DNA of 33,255 bases from a virus (Duplodnaviria; Heunggongvirae; Uroviricota; Caudoviricetes): IMG/VR virus record IMGVR_UViG_3300028581_000022, positions 64,001 to 97,255 of that record; one strand, 5' to 3'. Every line of letters starts with the position of its first letter. Within the stretch, counting starts at the first letter, position 1. Of this stretch, positions 1,831 to 31,908 are shown piece by piece. The position numbers and the translations under genes are program-made. Below the pieces are notes generated by a model. That model was not told the origin of the DNA. It was given only the letters and a program-made list of their open reading frames with translations, and searched no databases.

Positions 1831-2967
1831 ATGTTAAACAACTTTAAAATATTAAAAGTTAAAAATATAACTGAAACAAGTTTTACCATTGATGCTATTG
1901 TAGAAGGCGAAAGAGTATCAGTTGAATTTAAAAGAAGTGATTTGATTGAAGAACCGTTGGCATATGATGAACCATGGGTATATTCTTTTGAGTCAATTAA
2001 TTCACCAGATGGTAATGTTTATTCAATTAATGCAACTTATTTTGGTAACCCAAGAACTAATTTAGAATTTGATGAAGTTGATACTGATAGTTTAGAACAA
2101 ATAAATAAAATTAATGAAAACATATTTCCTATGAAAAAAGCTATAATTAGCCCAGTTGGTCTTAAAGGTAATGAAATCAACGAAAGAATGAAACAATTGA
2201 TGGGAATTCAATCAATTAATGAAAACAAATCTAACATTGTTGTTGAATTAACCAAGATAGGACCTGATGGTAATGCTTATGCTATCATAAGAGAAAACCA
2301 TGAATGGTACATTAAAAAAGCTAGTAAAACCAAAAATTTGGTAGCAGAAGACTTTAAGTATATTGGTGGTTTGCAAAACAAAAAACAAGAAGCTTATCCA
2401 TCATATGCAAAAGCTATAAAACATTTGAATCTTAAATTCAGAAGTCTAGCTGAAGCATACAACTATGATGGTGAAATTAATGTATTTTTGAATGATAATT
2501 TATTGTCAGAAATGGCTATGGCTGCTGGGTTTTCTGAAATGAAAGGTAATGGATTTACTGGTGAAGGAAACTTAGAAGGTAACAAACCAATGGATGAAAT
2601 GTATATGGAGGAAGTTGAAATGACCGAGGCTGAAATGGCCATTGATGAAATGATTGCTAAAGAAGAACTTAAAGGCAGTCAGAAAAAACTTGACGTAGCT
2701 GAACCAAAAGGTGAACTAACAGCTGCTGATTTTAAAAAATTAAGAGCTGGTAAAAAAGGTATGGAAGAAGGTGAAGAAATGACGGCAAAAGAAAAGAAAT
2801 TTGCTGCTTTGGCTGAACCTAAAAACAAAATTACTTACGCTGATAAAATAGCTGGTGCTAAAAAAGGTGATGTGAAAGAATCTAAGCTTTCAATTCTTAG
2901 TGCTTTAAAAGATTTTGATTCAATAATTGACAGTATTGCTGAAGGTGAAGTAAAAAAAAAAGTCTAA
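1831..2967 (+). CDS. Acidic putative internal head protein, 0-frame product (378 aa); N-terminal part of a predicted frameshift fusion
   Basis: Long ORF rich in Glu, Met and Lys with many [ILV]-x-E motifs (INE, LSE, IDE, VKE, IAE). It ends in GTA AAA AAA AAA GTC TAA. Confidence 0.85.
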   Translation: MLNNFKILKVKNITETSFTIDAIVEGERVSVEFKRSDLIEEPLAYDEPWVYSFESINSPDGNVYSINATYFGNPRTNLEFDEVDTDSLEQINKINENIFPMKKAIISPVGLKGNEINERMKQLMGIQSINENKSNIVVELTKIGPDGNAYAIIRENHEWYIKKASKTKNLVAEDFKYIGGLQNKKQEAYPSYAKAIKHLNLKFRSLAEAYNYDGEINVFLNDNLLSEMAMAAGFSEMKGNGFTGEGNLEGNKPMDEMYMEEVEMTEAEMAIDEMIAKEELKGSQKKLDVAEPKGELTAADFKKLRAGKKGMEEGEEMTAKEKKFAALAEPKNKITYADKIAGAKKGDVKESKLSILSALKDFDSIIDSIAEGEVKKKV

Positions 2968-4610
2968 AAATTAATTTAGACGAAGAAACAAAATATAAGT
3001 TAAAAATAGCAGCTCCTAGCGAGCCAGCTGTTGAGACTCCAATTGAAGAACCTATGGCTGAGCCAACTGCTGAAGAACCAGCAGCGCCAGTTGATGACAT
3101 AGCGCCTGCTGACGCATCATTAGAAGCCCCAGCAACAGATGATAAACCATTTGATGACGAGCCATTTGATGCTGGTGTTGAGGCCGATGAAGAAACGGAC
3201 CCAAAGAAATTTATCCAACAACTAACTGGTAAGTTAGGACAATCCCTTAGAAAATATAACGAAGAGCAAGGTCAACCAGATTTCGAATTAGAGAAATTTG
3301 CGATTAATTCATTATTGTCAGCCACTCACACAGGTGAAATGGACGCTGAAGACCAAAAAGATATCATAAGCAAAGTTAAAAAATCAGGTGTTGGTGACGA
3401 AGAAGCACCAGCAGACACTGAGGCTCCGTCAGAGGAAGCACCAGCTGAAGAACCATCTAGTGATTTAGATTTTGGCGGTGAAGAAGAAATCGAAGAGAAC
3501 ATGTTTATTGACAATCCTAAAAAATTAAGCATATTTGCACCAGAAGGTAGTAAAGAGGCCGAATATCAAAATACACACAATCCTATACAAAAAGAGTCAA
3601 ATAACTACATGTTTTGGCAAAATCTTAAAACCATTCATCACGCTGCTGGTGAATTATTAAAAATGAATTACGATGAAGTTGACGCTTTATTGTCAGATGG
3701 TCATGGATGGGCTTTGGACCATATAGCCACATCTGCTGATGATGTTGAAGAAGTTTATCATTTCATCGAAGGTAGATTAAATGATTACCATGTAGATTCT
3801 GATGACCAATATGAAATGGAAGATGAATGGTCAGCTCCAATGGAATTGCATAAAGAAATGATGGTTTCTGATGATTTAAAATACCATATTGAAAATGAAA
3901 TTCCTTTGAACGAAACAATATATAGAGTCGGTTCAGAAAAATATTTTAATTTGATTAAAGAAGTTAAGTCTTTATATTCAAAAGGGCTTATTAAACTTAA
4001 TGAAAATGATGCATTTATTGTTAATGAATTTGATAATCAATATATCATGCTTGAAGGTAAAAAGGTTAAGATGAACTTTATCTATGAAGAAGCTGAAACA
4101 GAAGAAATAAATGAAGCTGAAAATGTAAAAGTTGGTGACAAATTATATCATAAAAACTCTGATTCTACTTTAGAAGTAATTGATGTTACACCAAAAACAA
4201 TCAGTATGAAAGTTACAAAAACATCTGATAAAACACCTTCATATGTTAAAGTAGGTGATACATCAAAAACTGGTCCAGCTGCTATAGGTAAAACTTACGA
4301 ACTTATTAATGAAGCTGAGTATAAGGGTAAAAAAGTTCAATTAGGTAAACCTAAAAGAGGCGGTTCAAAGAAATTCTATGTTTATGTAAGAGACCCTCAA
4401 TCTGGTAACATTAAAAAAGTATCATTTGGTGCTAAGTCTGGTGGTGGTAACTTGGCTGTTAAGTTAAGAGACCCTAAAGCTAGAAAAGCATTTTCAGATA
4501 GACATAACTGTCCTTCAAAGACAGACAGAACTAGCCCAGGGTATTGGGCTTGCCGTTTGCCAAGATACGCTAAATCATTAGGTTTAGCAGGTGGTGGTAC
4601 ATGGTGGTAA
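2949..4610 (+). CDS. Modular putative internal head protein. First ATG is at 3054, but the frame is open and protein-like from 2949.
   Basis: Pro/Ala/Glu linkers alternate with globular modules (DKPFDDEPFDAGVEADE..PKKFIQQLTGKL; NYMFWQNL..DGHGWALDHI; VSDDLKYHIEN; KVGD SH3/KOW-like; AEYKGKKVQLGKP..SFG..RHNC..YWAC). The last module resembles a small T4-like phage family recalled as DUF6321 (unverified). Confidence 0.85.
   Translation, partial: SKKKSLKINLDEETKYKLKIAAPSEPAVETPIEEPMAEPTAEEPAAPVDDIAPADASLEAPATDDKPFDDEPFDAGVEADEETDPKKFIQQLTGKLGQSLRKYNEEQGQPDFELEKFAINSLLSATHTGEMDAEDQKDIISKVKKSGVGDEEAPADTEAPSEEAPAEEPSSDLDFGGEEEIEENMFIDNPKKLSIFAPEGSKEAEYQNTHNPIQKESNNYMFWQNLKTIHHAAGELLKMNYDEVDALLSDGHGWALDHIATSADDVEEVYHFIEGRLNDYHVDSDDQYEMEDEWSAPMELHKEMMVSDDLKYHIENEIPLNETIYRVGSEKYFNLIKEVKSLYSKGLIKLNENDAFIVNEFDNQYIMLEGKKVKMNFIYEEAETEEINEAENVKVGDKLYHKNSDSTLEVIDVTPKTISMKVTKTSDKTPSYVKVGDTSKTGPAAIGKTYELINEAEYKGKKVQLGKPKRGGSKKFYVYVRDPQSGNIKKVSFGAKSGGGNLAVKLRDPKARKAFSDRHNCPSKTDRTSPGYWACRLPRYAKSLGLAGGGTWW
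2952..2981 (+). other. Candidate -1 programmed frameshift / transcriptional slippage site
   Basis: A10 run (2952-2961) just before the stop, followed by the hairpin GTCTAAA-aattaa-TTTAGAC (2962-2981). The -1 frame is open from 2949 to 4610. Confidence 0.65.
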
Positions 4611-4623
4611 TAAATAATTAACT

Positions 4624-5076
4624 ATGAGTAGAATAACAAAACAAAAACAGCATTTAATTGAGCGTAAAAATAAACAGCTTTTGGGCGAACCAGAAATGGA
4701 ATGTCCAGAAGCGACTCAAGATTTGGAATTAAACACCAAAAATAGAGACGCAGCAATAAATGAACCTCATATTCAATATGGGCCATTAAATGTTGATGAG
4801 CCAGCTGATTTCTGGGAAAAGATAGCTGACCATTGGGACACTAGTGTTGAAGCCGCTATGCAATCTAAATGTGGTAACTGCGTTGCATTTGATATATCAC
4901 CAAGAATGGATGATTGTATGCCAGGTCCTGTATCTGATGACGATGGTAGGCTAGGATATTGTTGGATGCATCATTTTAAATGCCATTCAGCTAGAAGTTG
5001 TAGAACATGGGCCAAGGGTGGTCCTATTGAAGAAGATTCAATCTCCTATAAATGGCAAGAAAAAAATAAAAAGTAA
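4624..5076 (+). CDS. Cys-rich putative metal-binding protein (HiPIP-like Cys spacing)
   Basis: CGNCVAF...GYC-x12-CRTW pattern, with a basic N-terminal leader ending in LLGE. Confidence 0.75.
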   Translation: MSRITKQKQHLIERKNKQLLGEPEMECPEATQDLELNTKNRDAAINEPHIQYGPLNVDEPADFWEKIADHWDTSVEAAMQSKCGNCVAFDISPRMDDCMPGPVSDDDGRLGYCWMHHFKCHSARSCRTWAKGGPIEEDSISYKWQEKNKK

Positions 5077-5077
5077 C

Positions 5078-6778
5078 ATGAAACCATATACAGAACAAAA
5101 AAGTGGAAACATAATTAGAAGGACATTTTCGCATCTTGTTGAAAGTGAAGAACTGGTATGGCATCGTGATAGTGAAGATAGAATAGTTATTCCTTTAAAC
5201 GAAAACGATTGGATGGTTCAATTTGATAATGAATTACCTAAAAAGTTAAATGTTAATGAAGAGTTTTTCATACCAAAAAACACATTTCATAGAGTTATCA
5301 AAGGTTCTGTAGATTTGATGGTTGAAATCATAGAAACCAAATTTGAAGATGATGAATTAGTTGTTTATGAGGCTATTGAAGAGGGTAAAAAGAAAAAAGG
5401 TAAAAAGGATGCTTGTTATCATAAAGTAAGGGCTAGATATGACGTATGGCCATCAGCTTATGGGTCAGGTTCCTTGGTTCAATGTCGTAAAGTCGGTGCT
5501 GCTAATTGGGGAAATAAAACTAATGAAAATAAAGAAGAATTTCAAAATAAAGCTTTAGAAAAGATAAATAAAGTCGGTGGTTTTAATAATTTACCAGATA
5601 TAGATAAATTGGCTTTACTTGGCGGAACAAATGATGATAAGCTTAAAAAATTAAATTTAGGTAAAATTTTTAAACAAAATGGTGGTACTTTTGGTAAATT
5701 GGAAATAAAAGTTAAAGTAAAAAGTGTTAATGAACAACCGATTAACCATAAATTTAGTAAAGAATTTGCTGGTGAAGAGGGTTATTTATTTCCTTATATT
5801 AATTATACTGATGATAATGAGCCATATGTTACTGTTAGATTTGATAAGTTTGTTAGTAATTTAAATAGCTTTGGTGGTGGAAATTATGAAGAAAGACCAA
5901 TAATGTTAGACAATATTTATCCAATTGATTATGATGAAATAAAAAGTGAATTTGTTAAATATCAAAATAAAATAGATTTTGAAAGAGATGAATTTAAAAA
6001 ATCATTTGATGATTTGGAAAATATTGAAGAAAAATGGTCTGAAAAATACAAAAGAAGCATAGATTGTAATAATCCAAAAGGATTTAGCCAAAGAGCTCAT
6101 TGTCAAGGTAGAAAAAAAAGAAATGAATCCATAGAAGACAGAGAAAAATATTCAAAAGAAATGATTAAAAAAGCGCATGATGCAATTACCAGAAGAAAAG
6201 GTAAAAACTATGCGCCAGATGTTCATGAACTACAAGCTTGGATTGACAATTATTTAAAAATAAACAATATTGAATTAGACGAAGTCAAAAAAACTGACTT
6301 TTCAAAAGAAAAAGAACAGGGTCTTCATGGTTGGTTTTCTAGAAAAGGTGGTGAAGGAAAATCTCAAGGATGGGTTGATTGCAACACATGCAGAAAAGAC
6401 ACTAAGACTGGTAGGAAAAAATGCAAATCTTGCGGTAGAAAAGATGGTGAAGAAAGAGCTAAGTATCCAGCTTGTAGACCAACTCCATCTGCTTGTGGGA
6501 CACCTAAAAAGGGTGAAAGCTGGGGTAAAAAAAGCAACGAAAGCTTGTCAATGTTAGAAAATTTAAGTATCTTTGAACCTAAAAACTATATTAAAAATAT
6601 TTTAAGAGAATCATTTAATCAAGAAGACACTATGAGTGAACCAATGACACAACCAGCACCAGTAAAACCTAAAGAGGTTCCAAGTGAGCCGTTTACTGAA
6701 CCTGTTAAACCAAGTAGAAAAAATAAACCTTTTTTACCAATGCCTAACGTACAACCAGACCCAAAAGCTGAAAATTAA
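5078..6778 (+). CDS. Multi-module putative internal head polyprotein (N-terminal cupin-like domain plus basic Cys-containing modules)
   Basis: ATG 5078 (1 nt after the upstream stop) is preferred over 5018. Cupin-like WHRD..E...FIPK..FHRVIKG, followed by the modules DACYHKV..WPSAYGSG..CRK, KWSEKYKRSIDCNNPKGFSQRAHCQG and GWF..WVDCNTC..CKSCGR..YPACRP, then a Pro-rich C-terminus. Confidence 0.85.
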   Translation: MKPYTEQKSGNIIRRTFSHLVESEELVWHRDSEDRIVIPLNENDWMVQFDNELPKKLNVNEEFFIPKNTFHRVIKGSVDLMVEIIETKFEDDELVVYEAIEEGKKKKGKKDACYHKVRARYDVWPSAYGSGSLVQCRKVGAANWGNKTNENKEEFQNKALEKINKVGGFNNLPDIDKLALLGGTNDDKLKKLNLGKIFKQNGGTFGKLEIKVKVKSVNEQPINHKFSKEFAGEEGYLFPYINYTDDNEPYVTVRFDKFVSNLNSFGGGNYEERPIMLDNIYPIDYDEIKSEFVKYQNKIDFERDEFKKSFDDLENIEEKWSEKYKRSIDCNNPKGFSQRAHCQGRKKRNESIEDREKYSKEMIKKAHDAITRRKGKNYAPDVHELQAWIDNYLKINNIELDEVKKTDFSKEKEQGLHGWFSRKGGEGKSQGWVDCNTCRKDTKTGRKKCKSCGRKDGEERAKYPACRPTPSACGTPKKGESWGKKSNESLSMLENLSIFEPKNYIKNILRESFNQEDTMSEPMTQPAPVKPKEVPSEPFTEPVKPSRKNKPFLPMPNVQPDPKAEN

Positions 6779-11467: not shown

Positions 11468-14400
11468 ATGGCAGAAAATAGAAATTTAACTATATTTCAA
11501 AGATTAGGGCAAATTTTAGGTCCTGATTCGGCAAAATTAAAACAAAGTCAACCGCAACCACAACGTTACAATATGGGTAACGATGTATTGCTTAAAACAG
11601 ACAGCAAGGCTGACTTTGAAAGAGCTAAACTACAAACACAACAAAACAAATATTTGTCTCAAATGTGGAAAAAGGTTGAAAGCGGCCTTTTTCAACAATC
11701 AATAAACTATGAAACAACTCGTATTGGTTCGTATTCTGATTTTGAAGCAATGGAATTTTACCCAATAATTGCAGCTGCTTTGGATATCATGGCAGAAGAG
11801 TCAACGACTCTTAGTGATAAAGGTAAAGTACTTAATGTTTATTCAGATAGCAGTCGTGTTAAAGGTATCTTAGAAGATTTGTTTTTCAACAGATTAGATA
11901 TTCACACATCTTTACCAATGTGGACTAGAAATACACCTATCAGAGAAAACAGTGTTATACCATTATTAGATGGTACTGAGGTAACTATTAAAGAACTTTC
12001 TAATAGAGTTAAATCTGGTGAAGAAATATGGTCATACGCTATACAAGATGGTACCAAAGCAATTGTACCAAGTAAAATAATATGGTGTGACCTTACTAGA
12101 AAAGATTCTGAATTATATCGTGTTACTCTTGATGATGGTACGCACATTGACACAACCCCAGACCACGAATATATGCTTAGAGACGGTTCATTCAAAAGAG
12201 CTGATGAATTAACCAAAGGTCAGTCATTGATGCCTTTTTATACTAGAAAAAGTGAAAAGAAAAAAGATTGTATCGTAGGCTATGAAAAAATTTATAACCC
12301 TAACACAACTAAATATAGATTTACACATTCTTTAGTTGCACATGAATGTGTTAGAGATTCAAATTATGAAACTTCGGTTGGATGTCAATTTGATACACAT
12401 CATGCTGATTTTAATAAATTAAATAATCACCCTAGTAATTTAGTTAGATTAACCCATTCTGACCATTTTAAATTACATGTTGACCATTTTGATAAAATAT
12501 TAGGTTCGCCAGAAGTTATCAAAAAACGTATGGAAGGTATCGATAAATATTTACGTTCAGATGAAAGAAGAGAACGTTTAAGTGTTGAAATGTCTGGTAT
12601 CTATCCTAAATATTTTGAAGCATATAATAATTCTGATTTACATACAGAACATAATGAGATTCGTTCAAAAGGTATGTTATCAAATTGGAAAAATAGAGAA
12701 TTTATAGAACAAACCAAAAAAGGTATGACTATAGAAATTACTGATACTTGTTTTGACTATATTTCAAATATAATAAAAAATAACGAAAACTATGTTGGTG
12801 TTAATAAATTATCTGAATTGCTTAAAAATGATTCTGAATTTATTAATTTATTTAAAGAAGGTTATTCATTAAGAAAAGACATAGCAAAATCTATTAACCC
12901 AACTACTTTAACTAAAGTATTATTTAGAAAAACAAACCAAAATTATTTTGATTTTGTGTTGTCAATTAAACCAAGTTTGGTGATTGACAAGTCATATATA
13001 AAAGCTAAAGCAATCTATCTAGGAAAAACCAAAGAAAAGACCTTATTAAATCATAAAGTTGTTTCTATTGTTAAATTAAATGAAACATCCGATGTTTATT
13101 GTTTGGAAGCTGTTGGTCCTAACGGTGAGCATGATAGACATAATTTCCCAGTCTTAGGTAAAGATGTAAACGATTTATACTCAAGGACTTCTGGTGTATT
13201 TTTGTCCAACTGTAAATATGGTGACAACTTTGTGTTTTTGAATATTGATGACGTGCATGGTGTTACTGGCGCTAAACAAATGCCAAACTATGAAATGGAA
13301 AGAAGAGAAAGTGGTTTATTTGATATGATTACTGGTAGGGAAACACCAAATGCAAATGTAGCAGTTGCAGACAAAGTTAAATTTTACTGGAGAGGCCGTG
13401 ATGTTGAGTTTAATTCATGGCAAATTGCTCACTTTAGATTAACTGGTGATGACAGACGTTTACCATATGGTACTTCAATTTTGGAAAAGGCTAGACGTAT
13501 TTGGAAACAGCTTATCTTATCTGAAGATTCTATGTTGGTTTATCGTGTAACTCGTGCGCCAGAAAGACGTGTTTATAAAATATACGTTGGTAATATCGAT
13601 GATGCTGATGTACCAGCATACGTAAATGAAATTGCTGATAGATTTAAGAGAATTCCAATTACTGACCCACAAACTGGCCAAATGGACCTTAGATATAATC
13701 AATTATCTAACGACCAAGACTTCTTTATTCCAGTTCGTTCTGAAGATGCACCAAATCCTATTGACACACTTCCAGGTGCTAGCAACTTAGACCAAATTGC
13801 TGATATTGAATATTTGAGAAATAATTTATTTACAGCTTTGCGTGTACCAAAACCATTTTTAGGTTTTGATGAAGCAACTGGTGAAGGTAAAAACCTTGCT
13901 TTGCAAGACATTCGTTTTTCTAGAACCATAAACAGAATTCAGCAATCAATGCTTCAAGAGCTTAATAAGATTGCGATTATTCATTTGTATTTGTTAGGTT
14001 TTGATGAGGACTTTGATAACTTTACACTTACACTTAACAATCCATCTACTCAAGCTGAGATGCTTAAAATTGAACACACTCAATCTAAAGTAACACTTTA
14101 TAAAGATGCTGTGTCTGATGCTGGTAATGGATTTGCAGCTATGTCAATGACTAGAGCTAAACGAGATATATTAGGAATGTCTGATGACGAAATCAAAAAA
14201 GATTTGCTTGAACAAAGACTTGAAAAAGCAGCTGCTGCTGAATTGGCTAATTCTTCTAACGTAATCAAACATACTGGTATGTTTGATATAGTTGACAGAG
14301 TATATGGTGACATAAAATCAGCACTTAAAGGTGATGGAGAAGGCGGAGAAGCCGCTAGTGGGGAAAAAGGTGCTACAACCACAAGTGGTGGTGGTGGTGG

Positions 14401-14824
14401 TGGATTAGGCGGTTCATTTGGTGGTGGAGGCGTAGGTGGTGAAGACCTAGATTTTGGTGGTGACGAAGAAGGTGAAGGTGAAGCTGCTACTGAAGCTGGT
14501 GCTGAAGCTGAAGCTGGTGCTGAGATAGGTGGTGCTGAAGAAGATGCTACTGAGGCTGGCGCTGAAGAGGCTGCACCAACTGAAGTAACAGAATCAGTTA
14601 AAAAAATTGACAAGCTATTGAAAGAACAAAAAAGATTATTGACCAAGAAATTAGATGATAGAACCAAAAAATATAAAGGTAGATTTGTTGACGCTTTGTT
14701 AGACTCTATCATACCAACAAAAAAAGAGATTAACGAGAGAGTTAAAATTTACGATAAAAACGTAAAAATAAACAAAGATGTTGATGATATGATAAACGGC
14801 ATTGATAAAATGTTGGGTGAGTAG
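11468..14824 (+). CDS. gp20: Portal protein (T4 gp20-like) precursor containing an intein; predicted spliced length 693 aa
   Basis: Portal motifs IAAALDIMAEEST, WTRNT|CKYGDNF, RARRIWKQL.L.EDSMLVYRVTRAPERRVYKIYVGN, QDFFIPVR, IDTLPG, IADIEY, LRVPK.FLG and QDIRFSRTINRIQ. Confidence 0.95.
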   Translation: MAENRNLTIFQRLGQILGPDSAKLKQSQPQPQRYNMGNDVLLKTDSKADFERAKLQTQQNKYLSQMWKKVESGLFQQSINYETTRIGSYSDFEAMEFYPIIAAALDIMAEESTTLSDKGKVLNVYSDSSRVKGILEDLFFNRLDIHTSLPMWTRNTPIRENSVIPLLDGTEVTIKELSNRVKSGEEIWSYAIQDGTKAIVPSKIIWCDLTRKDSELYRVTLDDGTHIDTTPDHEYMLRDGSFKRADELTKGQSLMPFYTRKSEKKKDCIVGYEKIYNPNTTKYRFTHSLVAHECVRDSNYETSVGCQFDTHHADFNKLNNHPSNLVRLTHSDHFKLHVDHFDKILGSPEVIKKRMEGIDKYLRSDERRERLSVEMSGIYPKYFEAYNNSDLHTEHNEIRSKGMLSNWKNREFIEQTKKGMTIEITDTCFDYISNIIKNNENYVGVNKLSELLKNDSEFINLFKEGYSLRKDIAKSINPTTLTKVLFRKTNQNYFDFVLSIKPSLVIDKSYIKAKAIYLGKTKEKTLLNHKVVSIVKLNETSDVYCLEAVGPNGEHDRHNFPVLGKDVNDLYSRTSGVFLSNCKYGDNFVFLNIDDVHGVTGAKQMPNYEMERRESGLFDMITGRETPNANVAVADKVKFYWRGRDVEFNSWQIAHFRLTGDDRRLPYGTSILEKARRIWKQLILSEDSMLVYRVTRAPERRVYKIYVGNIDDADVPAYVNEIADRFKRIPITDPQTGQMDLRYNQLSNDQDFFIPVRSEDAPNPIDTLPGASNLDQIADIEYLRNNLFTALRVPKPFLGFDEATGEGKNLALQDIRFSRTINRIQQSMLQELNKIAIIHLYLLGFDEDFDNFTLTLNNPSTQAEMLKIEHTQSKVTLYKDAVSDAGNGFAAMSMTRAKRDILGMSDDEIKKDLLEQRLEKAAAAELANSSNVIKHTGMFDIVDRVYGDIKSALKGDGEGGEAASGEKGATTTSGGGGGGLGGSFGGGGVGGEDLDFGGDEEGEGEAATEAGAEAEAGAEIGGAEEDATEAGAEEAAPTEVTESVKKIDKLLKEQKRLLTKKLDDRTKKYKGRFVDALLDSIIPTKKEINERVKIYDKNVKINKDVDDMINGIDKMLGE
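11936..13210 (+). mobile_element. Intein (425 aa) with an HNH homing endonuclease; Pro at position 1 and Cys in block F (class-3-like)
   Basis: Block A-like PIRENSVIPLLDG, block B TTPDHEY, HNH motif THHADFNKLNNHPSNLVRLTHSDHFKLH, block F DVYCLEA and the C-terminal junction FLSN|C. Removing it restores WTRNTCKYGD. Confidence 0.9.
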
Positions 14825-30741: not shown

Positions 30742-31908
30742 TTATTTAATTAAGTTGTTAGTTTCTTCTGTGAATTCGTTATACTGTGCTTCTAAATTTT
30801 TAATTAAAAAGTCAATTTCAGCTTCTCTGTTTTTAATCAATTCACCATATATCGCTTTCATAGTTTCTTTTTGTTTCTCTTCAGTGTATTGGCCTTTACT
30901 TTCTTTGATACCTTCAAGCAAATCACTTGGTACTGAATCTTCTAGCCATACTTTAAGGTATGTAGCAATAAGTTCTGGGATGTTAATTGTAGTATTGGTC
31001 CAAACACCGTTGTTTTTAATCAAAATATTTCCATCAGCGTCTTTGCTTTCCATCCATTCTGGTACCAAGTTAGGAATTTTGCCAATTACTGGTGTCTCAC
31101 ACTCCATAGCTTCAACTGGGAAGGTTCCAAAACCAGATGGGTCATCAACCCAAATAGCCAAACAACATTTACCCAATTCTGTTGCAAATTGTTTTCTAGA
31201 CAGACCTCTAAGTTCTTTAAACGTAATCCATTTGTACATAGGATACTGCAAGTAGAATGATTTAGCAATCTTAGCAGCATCACCATGATTCCTTGTTAAG
31301 ATGGCAATCATAGGTATTTTTGGCTTATCGCTAGGTTTAAAGTATGACGGAATAGAAACTGGTACTATATGCGTTCTGATTGAAGGGAATAGAGTCGATA
31401 GATAAGACGCTTGTTTTTCGCTAGTAGTGATAACATCATTAAAACCATAATCGGTATTCCATCTTTTACCAATTGGTAACAACTCTAAAAGATAATCGTA
31501 ATTTTGAGAGAAAACAATTTTTTTACATGGGAAACCTTTCACTTGGTCCATGATGCTAGAAAATATTTCTGGGATAATAATAAAATCACTAGGGCTAATA
31601 TTCAAATTTTGACTTTCAATCGATAAGTGTGGTAGAGCAGCATACTCCTCACCCAACCAATCTGAAATACCTTGACCAGACGCATCGCCTTTTAATTTGT
31701 AATCATTTTTTTCATGTAGAATAGATGCTTTATAACCTAATTCATTTAATACTTTTACATGTTCGTAAATGTTTGCGATTCCAGCGGTAGGGTTACCTTT
31801 AGTATCAATGGCAAAAAAATAAAGGCTAAAATCTTTATTTTTCAATTTCTCCAAAACAGTCTTACCTTGGCTGATTTGTGTTTCAAATTGTTCTTTTTGT
31901 TGTTTCAT
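30742..31908 (-). CDS. GT-B fold glycosyltransferase (GT4-like)
   Basis: C-terminal nucleotide-sugar motif GFGTFPVEAMECETPVIG; N-terminal AGIANIYEHVKVLNELGYKASILH. Confidence 0.82.
   Translation of the reverse strand: MKQQKEQFETQISQGKTVLEKLKNKDFSLYFFAIDTKGNPTAGIANIYEHVKVLNELGYKASILHEKNDYKLKGDASGQGISDWLGEEYAALPHLSIESQNLNISPSDFIIIPEIFSSIMDQVKGFPCKKIVFSQNYDYLLELLPIGKRWNTDYGFNDVITTSEKQASYLSTLFPSIRTHIVPVSIPSYFKPSDKPKIPMIAILTRNHGDAAKIAKSFYLQYPMYKWITFKELRGLSRKQFATELGKCCLAIWVDDPSGFGTFPVEAMECETPVIGKIPNLVPEWMESKDADGNILIKNNGVWTNTTINIPELIATYLKVWLEDSVPSDLLEGIKESKGQYTEEKQKETMKAIYGELIKNREAEIDFLIKNLEAQYNEFTEETNNLIK

What the first reader, a model, noticed from the sequence alone, without database searches (positions are those of the whole stretch)
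2949..3053. Probable -1 recoding site fusing two head-protein ORFs (378-aa short form vs ~926-aa long form)
ORF 1831 ends GTA AAA AAA AAA GTC TAA. The -1 frame is open from 2949 and encodes 35 protein-like residues (SKKKSLKINLDEETKYKLKIAAPSEPAVETPIEEP) before the first ATG at 3054. That ATG sits in a Pro/Glu linker and lacks the A-rich context of the other starts. The A10 run (2952-2961) contains A-AAA-AAA slippery heptamers and is long enough for RNA polymerase slippage. It is followed by a perfect 7-bp hairpin, GTCTAAA/TTTAGAC, that contains the stop codon. The predicted fusion is 377 + 549 = 926 aa. Programmed frameshifts are well known in phage tail-chaperone and some capsid genes; one in a head-cargo gene of a huge T4-like phage would be unusual.
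Basis: partly seen in the sequence, partly recalled or inferred. Interest (0 to 1): 0.8.

Follow-up and report, generated by a model that had tools for sequence, protein, structure and literature searches.

The report
Conserved A10 slip site joining two phage ORFs
A run of ten A's in an uncultivated giant T4-like lake phage is a conserved slip site, so one locus should make a 378-residue protein and a 926-residue fusion; the mechanism is a known kind, but it is newly seen in this widespread gene family of unknown function.

Summary
ORF A (1831-2967) ends GTA AAA AAA AAA GTC TAA. The -1 frame is open from 2949 to 4610, and its first ATG is at 3054.

The site is a real programmed recoding site:
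- In 33 distinct related viral contigs the downstream frame is always -1. The junction always carries A10 (A11 once).
- 28 of 32 have no start codon before a conserved KYKLK motif that shows coding-type third-position variation.
- No Lys codon in any run is AAG, against 23% AAG in the flanks.
- 112 of the 150 best cluster representatives of ORF A end in KKK plus a short tail.
- More distant relatives at the same genomic position are continuous A-B ORFs. Some lack the run. Three keep A10 in frame, with stops close by in both other frames.

The proposed 7-bp hairpin exists only in the window and three close relatives. It is therefore not the conserved signal.

I favour RNA-polymerase slippage over ribosomal -1 frameshifting, about 55 to 33. 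No RNA data bridged the run, so this is unresolved. The "head cargo" label is unproven and the function is unknown.

This scan has already found homologous A-run sites on other DNA (e1-5387126, e1-5319240). I found no publication describing it.

The parts
1831..2967 (+). ORF A, zero frame, 378 aa: the short product. The conserved core is residues ~101-280. Residues 1-100 are an extra N-terminal module that most homologues lack.
   Evidence: Homologues mostly start at query residue ~101. No Pfam or PHROG family.
2952..2961 (+). A10 run, the slip site. In the zero frame it reads xxA AAA AAA AAA G, so it holds two in-phase A_AAA_AAA heptamers.
   Evidence: A10 in 32 of 33 distinct related junctions and A11 in one. 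0 of 102 Lys codons in the runs are AAG, against 23% of 979 flanking Lys codons; Fisher p = 1.5e-11, not corrected for phylogeny.
2965..2967 (+). TAA stop of the zero frame, one codon after the run.
   Evidence: In relatives the zero-frame stop follows the run by 1-8 codons of unconserved sequence.
2949..4610 (+). The -1 frame (part B), 553 codons plus stop, open from just after the TGA at 2946-2948. It is reached only by slipping in the run. It holds acidic Pro/Glu/Ala-rich linkers and several modules.
   Evidence: tblastn places part B in the -1 frame relative to A in every locus that has both on the same strand.
2982..3017 (+). Conserved -1-frame peptide EETKYKLKIAAP, upstream of any start codon.
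   Evidence: The motif is present in 32 of 34 junctions. Third-codon-position entropy is 1.18 bits against 0.60 and 0.49 at positions 1 and 2. 28 of 32 have no ATG, GTG or TTG between the -1-frame stop and the motif.
2962..2981 (+). 7-bp hairpin (GTCTAAA, 6-nt loop, TTTAGAC) that contains the stop codon. It is local to this sublineage.
   Evidence: present in the window, L001, L002 and L021 only. The mean z of downstream folding across 34 junctions is -0.57.
3054..3056 (+). First ATG in the -1 frame, most likely an internal Met codon.
   Evidence: Its upstream context is the least A+T-rich of 30 starts. In relatives the first ATG lies 23 to 395 nt after the A stop.
4314..4607 (+). Very conserved basic C-terminal domain (~98 aa, ends GGGTWW), preceded by an invariant (I/L)NE-AEY motif.
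   Evidence: Alignment A2: 78% mean column identity across 30 homologues that are otherwise 40-80% identical. Matches phrog_7595, unknown function. The AlphaFold model is unreliable, pLDDT 42.

Best explanation
The A10 run at 2952-2961 is a programmed slippage site. By default the locus yields the 378-aa protein A, which ends KKKV. In a minority of expression events the reading frame moves to -1 within the run. That gives a 926-aa A-B fusion with the junction ...EVKKKSLKINLDEETK. Part B has no translation start of its own. I think the main mechanism is slippage of the host RNA polymerase on the run: one extra A gives A11 mRNA, which is then read normally. Slippage or sliding of tRNA-Lys on the A_AAA_AAA heptamers may contribute. 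Shown: the anatomy, the conservation of run, offset and -1-frame coding, and the existence of natural fusions. Inferred: the mechanism, the ratio of the two products, and that both products are needed.
For: (1) In all 33 distinct related junctions from viral contigs, B lies in the -1 frame relative to A. The junction holds A10 (29 in the same phase as here, 3 in another phase) or A11 (1), and the zero frame stops 1-8 codons later. (2) The -1-frame segment before any ATG is protein-coding. The KYKLK motif shows twofold higher third-position variation, and 28 of 32 junctions have no canonical start before it. The first ATG wanders from 23 to 395 nt after the A stop. (3) The run is selected as nucleotides: 0 of 102 AAG codons in the runs against 23% in the flanks. 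Elsewhere in this genome, A runs of 9 or more avoid coding sequence. (4) 112 of the 150 best representatives of 50%-identity clusters of protein A end in KKK plus 12 or fewer residues. (5) Natural continuous A-B ORFs exist at the same genomic position, with thyA upstream and terL downstream. P0245 (L102-L104) and at least seven others have no run. P0222, P0213 and P0225 (L101, L105, L106) have A10 kept in frame and stops within 5 codons in both other frames. (6) In favour of polymerase slippage over ribosomal frameshifting: the run is never shorter than 10, although 7 would suffice for tandem tRNA slippage. No downstream structure is conserved. The genes here almost never use Shine-Dalgarno sequences (2 of 29). 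The two frame configurations within one family mirror Citrobacter tssM1 and Yersinia tssM3, where transcriptional slippage on an A run was demonstrated at about 20% (PMC4256274), and Thermus dnaX (PMC5009743). Bacterial RNA polymerase needs long A runs to slip: at least 7 T, and more for A (abstract of PMC6260861).
Against: There is no RNA or protein evidence. The RNA-library contigs that matched do not bridge the run. The run contains two in-phase A_AAA_AAA heptamers, and ribosomes are known to slide on A runs (PMC4363877, title and abstract seen). A ribosomal mechanism therefore fits the same data. The junction peptide is identical under both mechanisms. One subclade (L015, L025, L064 and about 40 called proteins that begin MSTGLF) has an ATG 23 nt after the A stop, so B might also be initiated independently there. 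One contig (L107) has A11 and is in frame.
Confidence: 0.55

Rival explanations
1. The same two products arise, but by -1 programmed ribosomal frameshifting or ribosome sliding. Two tRNA-Lys slip back one base on A_AAA_AAA in homogeneous A10 mRNA. In this sublineage the adjacent hairpin may help.
For: Two in-phase heptamers lie in the run. The phase xxA AAA AAA AAA is kept in 29 of 33 junctions. The window has a stable hairpin directly after the run. Ribosome sliding on lysine-encoding A stretches is described (PMC4363877, seen), and E. coli dnaX uses A_AAA_AAG (PMC5009743). Many relatives have GAAGG(T/G) a few nucleotides upstream of the run.
Against: The hairpin is limited to four close sequences and starts 0-3 nt after the heptamers, not the usual 5-9 nt. 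Several relatives have zero predicted structure. The run length is held at 10 or more, although 7 would do. GAAGG encodes a conserved Glu-Gly, and this phage's genes hardly use Shine-Dalgarno sequences. The phase is also explained by common descent.
Confidence: 0.33
2. These are two ordinary genes. A ends at 2967 and B starts on its own at ATG 3054 (518 aa) or by reinitiation. The A run is just an A-rich Lys stretch.
For: Gene callers annotate the two separately. A subclade has a fairly conserved ATG (MSTGLF...) 23 nt after the A stop. A/T runs of 10 or more are not rare in this genome.
Against: 28 of 32 relatives have no start codon before the conserved, coding-type KYKLK motif. The position of the first ATG is not conserved. 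The context of ATG 3054 is atypical. The subclade's Met is ATT or AGG in L027 and L052, yet the run and the offset persist. Continuous A-B ORFs exist in relatives. No AAG occurs in any run.
Confidence: 0.05
3. This is DNA-level phase variation. Replication slippage switches the run between A10 (short form) and A11 (fusion) within the phage population, as in a contingency locus.
For: Homopolymers of 10 are prone to replication slippage. L107, nested next to the window in the tree, has A11 and is in frame.
Against: 33 of 34 run-bearing relatives in the -1 arrangement show the same 'off' length at consensus level. The independent DNA run has A10. L107 comes from a single recent assembly and may be a homopolymer error. 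Contigs cannot show minority variants, so a low level is not excluded.
Confidence: 0.04
4. It is an assembly or sequencing artefact: the real gene is one ORF with A11.
For: Homopolymer errors are common in some sequencing technologies.
Against: The same length and offset occur in 33 distinct assemblies from many samples and in an independent run. 112 cluster representatives end in the KKK tail.
Confidence: 0.02

Closest known systems
Citrobacter rodentium tssM1 and Yersinia pseudotuberculosis tssM3 (transcriptional frameshifting on an A run; PMC4256274)
   Same: A long A run lies a few bases before a premature stop. Slippage gives a short and a full-length protein. Within one gene family, one member needs the slip to make the long form (tssM1, like this window). 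Another is in frame and makes the short form by slipping (tssM3, like L101, L105 and L106).
   Different: Those are bacterial secretion-system genes with A11, and the mechanism was proven by RNA mass spectrometry. Here the gene is a phage gene of unknown function with A10, nothing has been measured, and the site is conserved across far more lineages.
Thermus thermophilus dnaX tau/gamma (transcriptional slippage) and E. coli dnaX (A_AAA_AAG ribosomal -1 frameshift), as reviewed in PMC5009743
   Same: An A run yields two products that share an N terminus. The in-frame relatives (L101, L105, L106) have nearby stops in both non-zero frames, which is exactly the Thermus arrangement.
   Different: In dnaX the long form is the default and the slip truncates it. 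In this window the short form is the default and the slip extends it. There is no conserved stem-loop or Shine-Dalgarno-like stimulator as in E. coli dnaX.
Shigella spa13 / mxiE (transcriptional slippage that extends the product; PMC5009743)
   Same: The slip extends a short default product into a longer functional one. The review gives 25-30% for spa13.
   Different: Bacterial type III secretion genes with an unrelated protein.
Phage tail assembly chaperones gpG/gpGT and capsid 10A/10B-type frameshifts (PMC5009743; PMC10885494)
   Same: A phage morphogenesis-region gene that makes a short and a C-terminally extended form in a fixed ratio through a -1 shift.
   Different: Those use short heptamers, are ribosomal, and sit between the tail tube and tape-measure genes or in the capsid gene. 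This gene lies between thyA and terL, is far larger (378 and 926 aa), is unrelated in sequence, and uses a 10-nt homopolymer.
Homologous and analogous A-run sites noted earlier in this scan (e1-5387126, e1-5319240, e1-3419905, e1-3011815)
   Same: An A10 run fuses a 150-280-aa ORF to a start-less downstream frame near the head genes of uncultivated giant phages of about 350 kb. e1-5387126 shares sequence words with protein A.
   Different: They are on other genomes. Those notes are unpublished AI notes, not independent evidence.

Membership tests
Programmed transcriptional slippage sites (Thermus dnaX, Shigella mxiE/spa13, Citrobacter tssM1) | A homopolymeric A or T run of about 9 or more at the point where the reading frame changes | tested here: met
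   A10 at 2952-2961; A10 or A11 in all 33 related junctions.
Programmed transcriptional slippage sites (Thermus dnaX, Shigella mxiE/spa13, Citrobacter tssM1) | The run is conserved as nucleotides against synonymous change, and the new frame is under coding selection | tested here: met
   0 of 102 AAG codons in the runs against 23% in the flanks. The -1-frame motif has a coding-type substitution pattern.
Programmed transcriptional slippage sites (Thermus dnaX, Shigella mxiE/spa13, Citrobacter tssM1) | mRNA is heterogeneous in run length while the DNA is homogeneous | not testable with these tools
   Only assembled contigs of RNA libraries were available and none bridges the run.
-1 programmed ribosomal frameshifting (E. 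coli dnaX, lambda G/GT, T7 10A/10B) | An X_XXY_YYZ heptamer in phase with the zero frame | tested here: met
   A_AAA_AAA occurs twice within the run. The phase is kept in 29 of 33 junctions.
-1 programmed ribosomal frameshifting (E. coli dnaX, lambda G/GT, T7 10A/10B) | A conserved stimulatory RNA structure 5-9 nt downstream, or an upstream Shine-Dalgarno-like element | tested here: not met
   The hairpin is in only 4 of 34 junctions, with 0-3 nt spacing; mean z is -0.57. The upstream GAAGG codes for Glu-Gly, and Shine-Dalgarno use is rare here (2 of 29 starts). Stimulators are common but not obligatory for this class.
-1 programmed ribosomal frameshifting (E. coli dnaX, lambda G/GT, T7 10A/10B) | A trans-frame protein made from homogeneous mRNA | not testable with these tools
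   This needs in vitro translation of defined mRNA or paired RNA and protein data.
Tail assembly chaperone G/GT pair | Small overlapping ORFs directly upstream of the tape-measure gene | tested here: not met
   The gene lies between thyA and terL. The products are 378 and 926 aa, and no tape-measure gene is adjacent.
T4-type internal head (cargo) proteins processed by the prohead protease | Encoded with the head genes and carrying (L/I)-x-E cleavage sites at domain boundaries | tested here: inconclusive
   The gene is about 5 kb upstream of terL and the T4-type portal, protease and capsid genes. An invariant (I/L)NE-AEY motif precedes the conserved C-terminal domain. The motif is short and cleavage is untested.
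T4-type internal head (cargo) proteins processed by the prohead protease | Presence inside the virion | not testable with these tools
   No cultured phage carries protein A, and no proteome is available.
DNA-level phase-variable (contingency) loci | The run length differs between closely related genomes, switching the frame on and off | tested here: not met
   33 of 34 relatives in this arrangement have the same offset. Only L107 (A11) differs. Minority variants within samples could not be examined.

The most novel reading that the evidence does not exclude
In this clade of giant T4-like phages, A10 tracts may act as a reusable valve at module boundaries of polyprotein-like virion genes. Several observations point this way. 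The tract has been kept since before the lineages diverged below 50% identity. It works in both frame arrangements (default-short here, default-long in L101, L105 and L106). It can occur twice in one gene (L105). The tract would set the ratio of nested products. The long form would then be cut at (I/L)-x-E sites by the prohead protease, releasing an extremely conserved 98-aa basic C-terminal domain as packaged cargo.
Probability: 0.2. Interest if true: 0.7.

Novelty: new member of a known kind. Interest (0 to 1): 0.5.

Why it matters
Gene callers split this locus into two "hypothetical proteins" in hundreds of metagenomic phage contigs. They give the second one an arbitrary internal start. Recognising the slip site corrects that annotation: one locus, two products that share an N terminus, and a start-less 549-residue extension. 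It also adds a large, deeply conserved example to the short list of programmed A-run slippage sites. The example is in a phage morphogenesis region and occurs in both default-short and default-long arrangements. That makes it a good natural system for asking how slippage efficiency sets protein stoichiometry. It does not reveal a new mechanism, and the function of the proteins remains unknown.

Tried and rejected
RNA evidence:
- Two run searches and one read-laying run found only assembled contigs.
- The RNA-library contigs cover 2401-2609, 2975-3152, 3136-3181 and 3454-3487. None bridges the run, so they say nothing about A11 transcripts or expression.

Function:
- Pfam gave nothing for A or B.
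- PHROGs gave only phrog_7595, unknown function, on the C terminus.
- The PDB sequence search gave nothing below E = 0.3.
- The Atlas feature search gave only viral hypothetical proteins, with weak leads to DUF6321, DUF5872 and DUF5824.
- The AlphaFold model of the A core (pLDDT 73; core above 90) had no Foldseek PDB hit with E of 0.001 or less. Its best VIA-align Z was 5.6, which is below the stated noise level. In BFVD it matched only uncharacterised phage proteins.
- The model of the C-terminal domain was unusable, pLDDT 42.

Cultured relatives:
- tblastn of A against 50,697 phage records found nothing.
- B matched only a short module in Flavobacterium phage immuto and in the 642-kb uncultured phage LR756502, in uninformative contexts.

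Stimulators:
- I looked for conserved structure upstream and downstream of the run and found none.
- I considered the upstream GAAGG as a Shine-Dalgarno-like stimulator and set it aside, because it is a conserved Glu-Gly codon pair in a genome that does not use Shine-Dalgarno sequences.

Literature:
- Five full-text searches found no description of this gene family or of an A-run slip site in T4-like or huge phages.
- That library is incomplete, so this is not proof of absence.

I did not run complex prediction, because no binding claim is made.
Full report
**1. Observation**

The window is the last 33 kb of a 97,255-nt viral contig. The contig is 31% GC, is estimated by CheckV to be 28% complete, and is held by many lake-water metagenomes.

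- ORF A runs 1831-2967 (378 aa) and ends GTA AAA AAA AAA GTC TAA. The A10 run is at 2952-2961.
- The -1 frame has a TGA at 2946-2948. It is then open from 2949 to the stop at 4608-4610, which is 553 codons. Its first ATG is at 3054, 35 codons in.
- The 7-bp hairpin at 2962-2981 is real.
- A contig from an independent lake-water DNA run covers 2727-3189 without any difference.

**2. Is it more than chance?**

Within this genome alone the answer is only partly yes. A/T runs of 10 or more are as frequent as a third-order Markov model predicts (11 against 10.3).

Their placement is not random, though. There are 23 A runs of 9 or more on the two strands. Of these, 21 lie at gene boundaries, typically in the A-rich leader just before a start codon, and one lies inside an ORF. 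Only this one sits where a long ORF ends and a long open frame in another phase begins.

**3. Comparative evidence**

This is the decisive part.

- Searches of IMG/VR contigs with A and with B returned 99 loci.
- In every locus that has both parts on the same strand, tblastn puts B in the frame one base behind A.
- After collapsing identical contexts there are 33 distinct junctions. Twenty-nine have A10 in the same phase as here, three have A10 in another phase, and one has A11. All need a -1 shift. The zero frame stops 1-8 codons after the run, with unconserved tails.
- The first ATG in the B frame lies anywhere from 23 to 395 nt after the A stop.
- A peptide motif, E-(E/D)-T-K-Y-K-L-K-(L/V/I), lies 7-18 codons into the open -1 segment in most relatives, and 33-39 codons in one subclade.
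- The codons of this motif vary about twice as much at third positions (1.18 bits) as at first and second positions (0.60 and 0.49).
- In 28 of 32 junctions there is no ATG, GTG or TTG between the upstream stop and the motif. The segment is therefore translated, and it can only be reached from frame A.
- The run is also conserved as nucleotides. None of the 102 Lys codons inside the runs is AAG, whereas 229 of 979 flanking Lys codons are. Fisher p = 1.5e-11, not corrected for shared ancestry.
- An exhaustive profile-free search found 923 representatives of 50%-identity clusters related to A. Of the best 150, 112 end in KKK plus at most 12 residues.

**4. Natural fusions**

Twenty-three of those 150 representatives also contain B-type sequence in the same polypeptide. 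Their junctions fall into two types.

- *No Lys run.* Examples are P0245, P0247, P0253, P0262, P0267 and P0273.
  - P0245 is encoded at the same genomic position: KTSC protein, thyA and one gene upstream, then three small genes downstream (L102-L104).
- *KKKSL at the junction.* The DNA of three of these (L101, L105, L106) shows the same A10 followed by GT(C/T)TAA.
  - Here the upstream part is in the same frame as B, so the long form is the default.
  - Both other frames stop within five codons.
  - L101 is syntenic, with ClpC, KTSC and thyA upstream and terL downstream.
  - L105 has a second run, A11, at another module boundary in the same gene.

One contig (L107) is the window's arrangement with A11 and is in frame.

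A maximum-likelihood tree of the A core (45 rows; midpoint root, for drawing only) gives this picture:
- most of the run-less fusions fall outside a group of 37 rows (support 88/94) that holds all run-bearing forms;
- the three in-frame A10 forms make one supported clade (98/96) inside that group;
- L107 sits next to the window.

With the caveat about rooting, this suggests three things. A continuous gene came first. The run arose once and has been kept since. The frame relation changed around it. L107 is either a recent one-base variant or a homopolymer error.

**5. Signals other than the run**

- Other relatives have a 4-bp remnant or no structure at all (0.0 kcal/mol in L028 and L031-L033).
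- Mean z-scores for folding of the 50 nt downstream and the 45 nt upstream are -0.57 and -0.37.
- A GAAGG(T/G) a few nucleotides upstream is common, but it encodes a conserved Glu-Gly.
- Only 2 of 29 gene starts in the window have a Shine-Dalgarno-like sequence. The starts instead have leaders of 83 +/- 10% A+T.
- The 20 nt before ATG 3054 are 60% A+T, the lowest value in the set. This fits an internal Met codon.

**6. Mechanism**

Both known mechanisms fit the anatomy and both give the same junction peptide (...EVKKKSLK...). Protein data therefore cannot separate them.

I lean towards RNA-polymerase slippage (one extra A in the mRNA) for four reasons:
- The run is never shorter than 10, although a 7-nt heptamer would suffice for tandem tRNA slippage.
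- No stimulatory element is conserved.
- Bacterial RNA polymerase is reported to need long A runs to slip (abstract of PMC6260861).
- The coexistence of default-short and default-long arrangements around the same tract is what was shown experimentally for Citrobacter tssM1 and Yersinia tssM3. In tssM1, transcriptional slippage on A11 gives about 20% frameshifted product, and both forms and their ratio are needed (PMC4256274). The in-frame relatives also match Thermus dnaX, which has stops in both non-zero frames (PMC5009743).

Against this, the run holds two in-phase A_AAA_AAA heptamers, and ribosomes slide on A runs (PMC4363877).

My odds are:

| Reading | Odds |
|---|---|
| Programmed recoding of some kind | about 0.9 |
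| - mainly transcriptional | about 0.55 |
| - mainly ribosomal | about 0.33 |
| Two independent genes | 0.05 |
| DNA-level phase variation | 0.04 |
| Artefact | 0.02 |

**7. What the proteins are**

The neighbourhood is that of a T4-like phage:
- thymidylate synthase upstream;
- then this gene and five genes without an informative annotation;
- then a T4-type large terminase and a gp20-type portal that carries an intein;
- then a gp21-type prohead protease and a gp23-type major capsid protein.

Neither A nor B matches any Pfam family. No cultured phage has A. The confident part of the A-core model has no convincing structural neighbour.

B is acidic and rich in Pro/Glu/Ala linkers. It ends in a basic ~98-aa domain that is far more conserved than the rest (78% mean column identity). 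That domain is preceded by an invariant (I/L)NE-AEY motif, which resembles T4 prohead-protease sites.

Function remains unknown. My best guess, at roughly one in three, is a virion-associated modular protein whose short and long forms are needed in a fixed ratio.

**8. Comparison and novelty**

The device is a known kind: programmed slippage on an A run. The gene family, its phage context and its breadth are new as far as I could find in five literature searches. The breadth is at least 112 clusters at 50% identity, in freshwater and other metagenomes.

The same scan has already reported homologous or analogous A10 sites in other giant-phage contigs. This is therefore another member of that set, not a first sighting.

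- the syntenic run-less fusions;
- the in-frame A10 clade;
- the codon-level tests;
- the demonstration that the hairpin is lineage-specific.

Noticed in passing
window 11468-14824: The T4-type portal gene (PF07230) is interrupted by an intein (PF14890, residues ~164-548) with HNH-endonuclease matches.
   Followed up: no
window 1831-2130: Residues 1-100 of ORF A are an extra N-terminal module. Almost all homologues start at the Met equivalent to residue 101. In L015 and L019 a homologue of this module lies downstream as separate coding sequence.
   Followed up: partly
L105 gene nt 760-770 and 1249-1258: One relative carries two long A runs (A11 and A10) in the same in-frame gene. Each is at a module boundary and has a stop directly after it in at least one other frame.
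   Followed up: partly
window 4302-4325 (P0003 residues 452-459): An invariant (I/L)NE-AEY motif lies directly before the ultra-conserved basic C-terminal domain. It resembles a T4 prohead-protease (L/I)-x-E cleavage site.
   Followed up: partly
whole 97-kb genome (G000): 21 of 23 A runs of 9 or more lie at gene boundaries, many directly before ATG. Only 2 of 29 starts in the window have a Shine-Dalgarno-like sequence. The leaders are 83% A+T, a pattern typical of hosts that do not use Shine-Dalgarno initiation, such as Bacteroidota. This is an inference; the host was not identified.
   Followed up: partly
window 4624-5076 and 5018-6778: The 150-aa ORF and the GTG-started 586-aa ORF overlap by 59 nt in different frames. 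The start of the second ORF is uncertain.
   Followed up: no
L015, L025, L064 and about 40 B homologues (P0027-P0066, P0103-P0123): A subclade has an ATG (MSTGLF...) 23 nt after the A stop, so B may also be initiated independently there. The codon is ATT in L027 and AGG in L052.
   Followed up: partly
G000 31411-31421: A T11 run. No frame is open for 60 or more codons on both sides of it. Its context was not examined further.
   Followed up: no
window 2975-3152: A contig from a poly(A)-selected metatranscriptome library (8 differences in 178 nt, so a close relative) begins exactly at the 3' arm of the hairpin, 14 nt after the run. The reason is unknown. It may be an assembly break at a length-variable homopolymer, or chance.
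   Followed up: no
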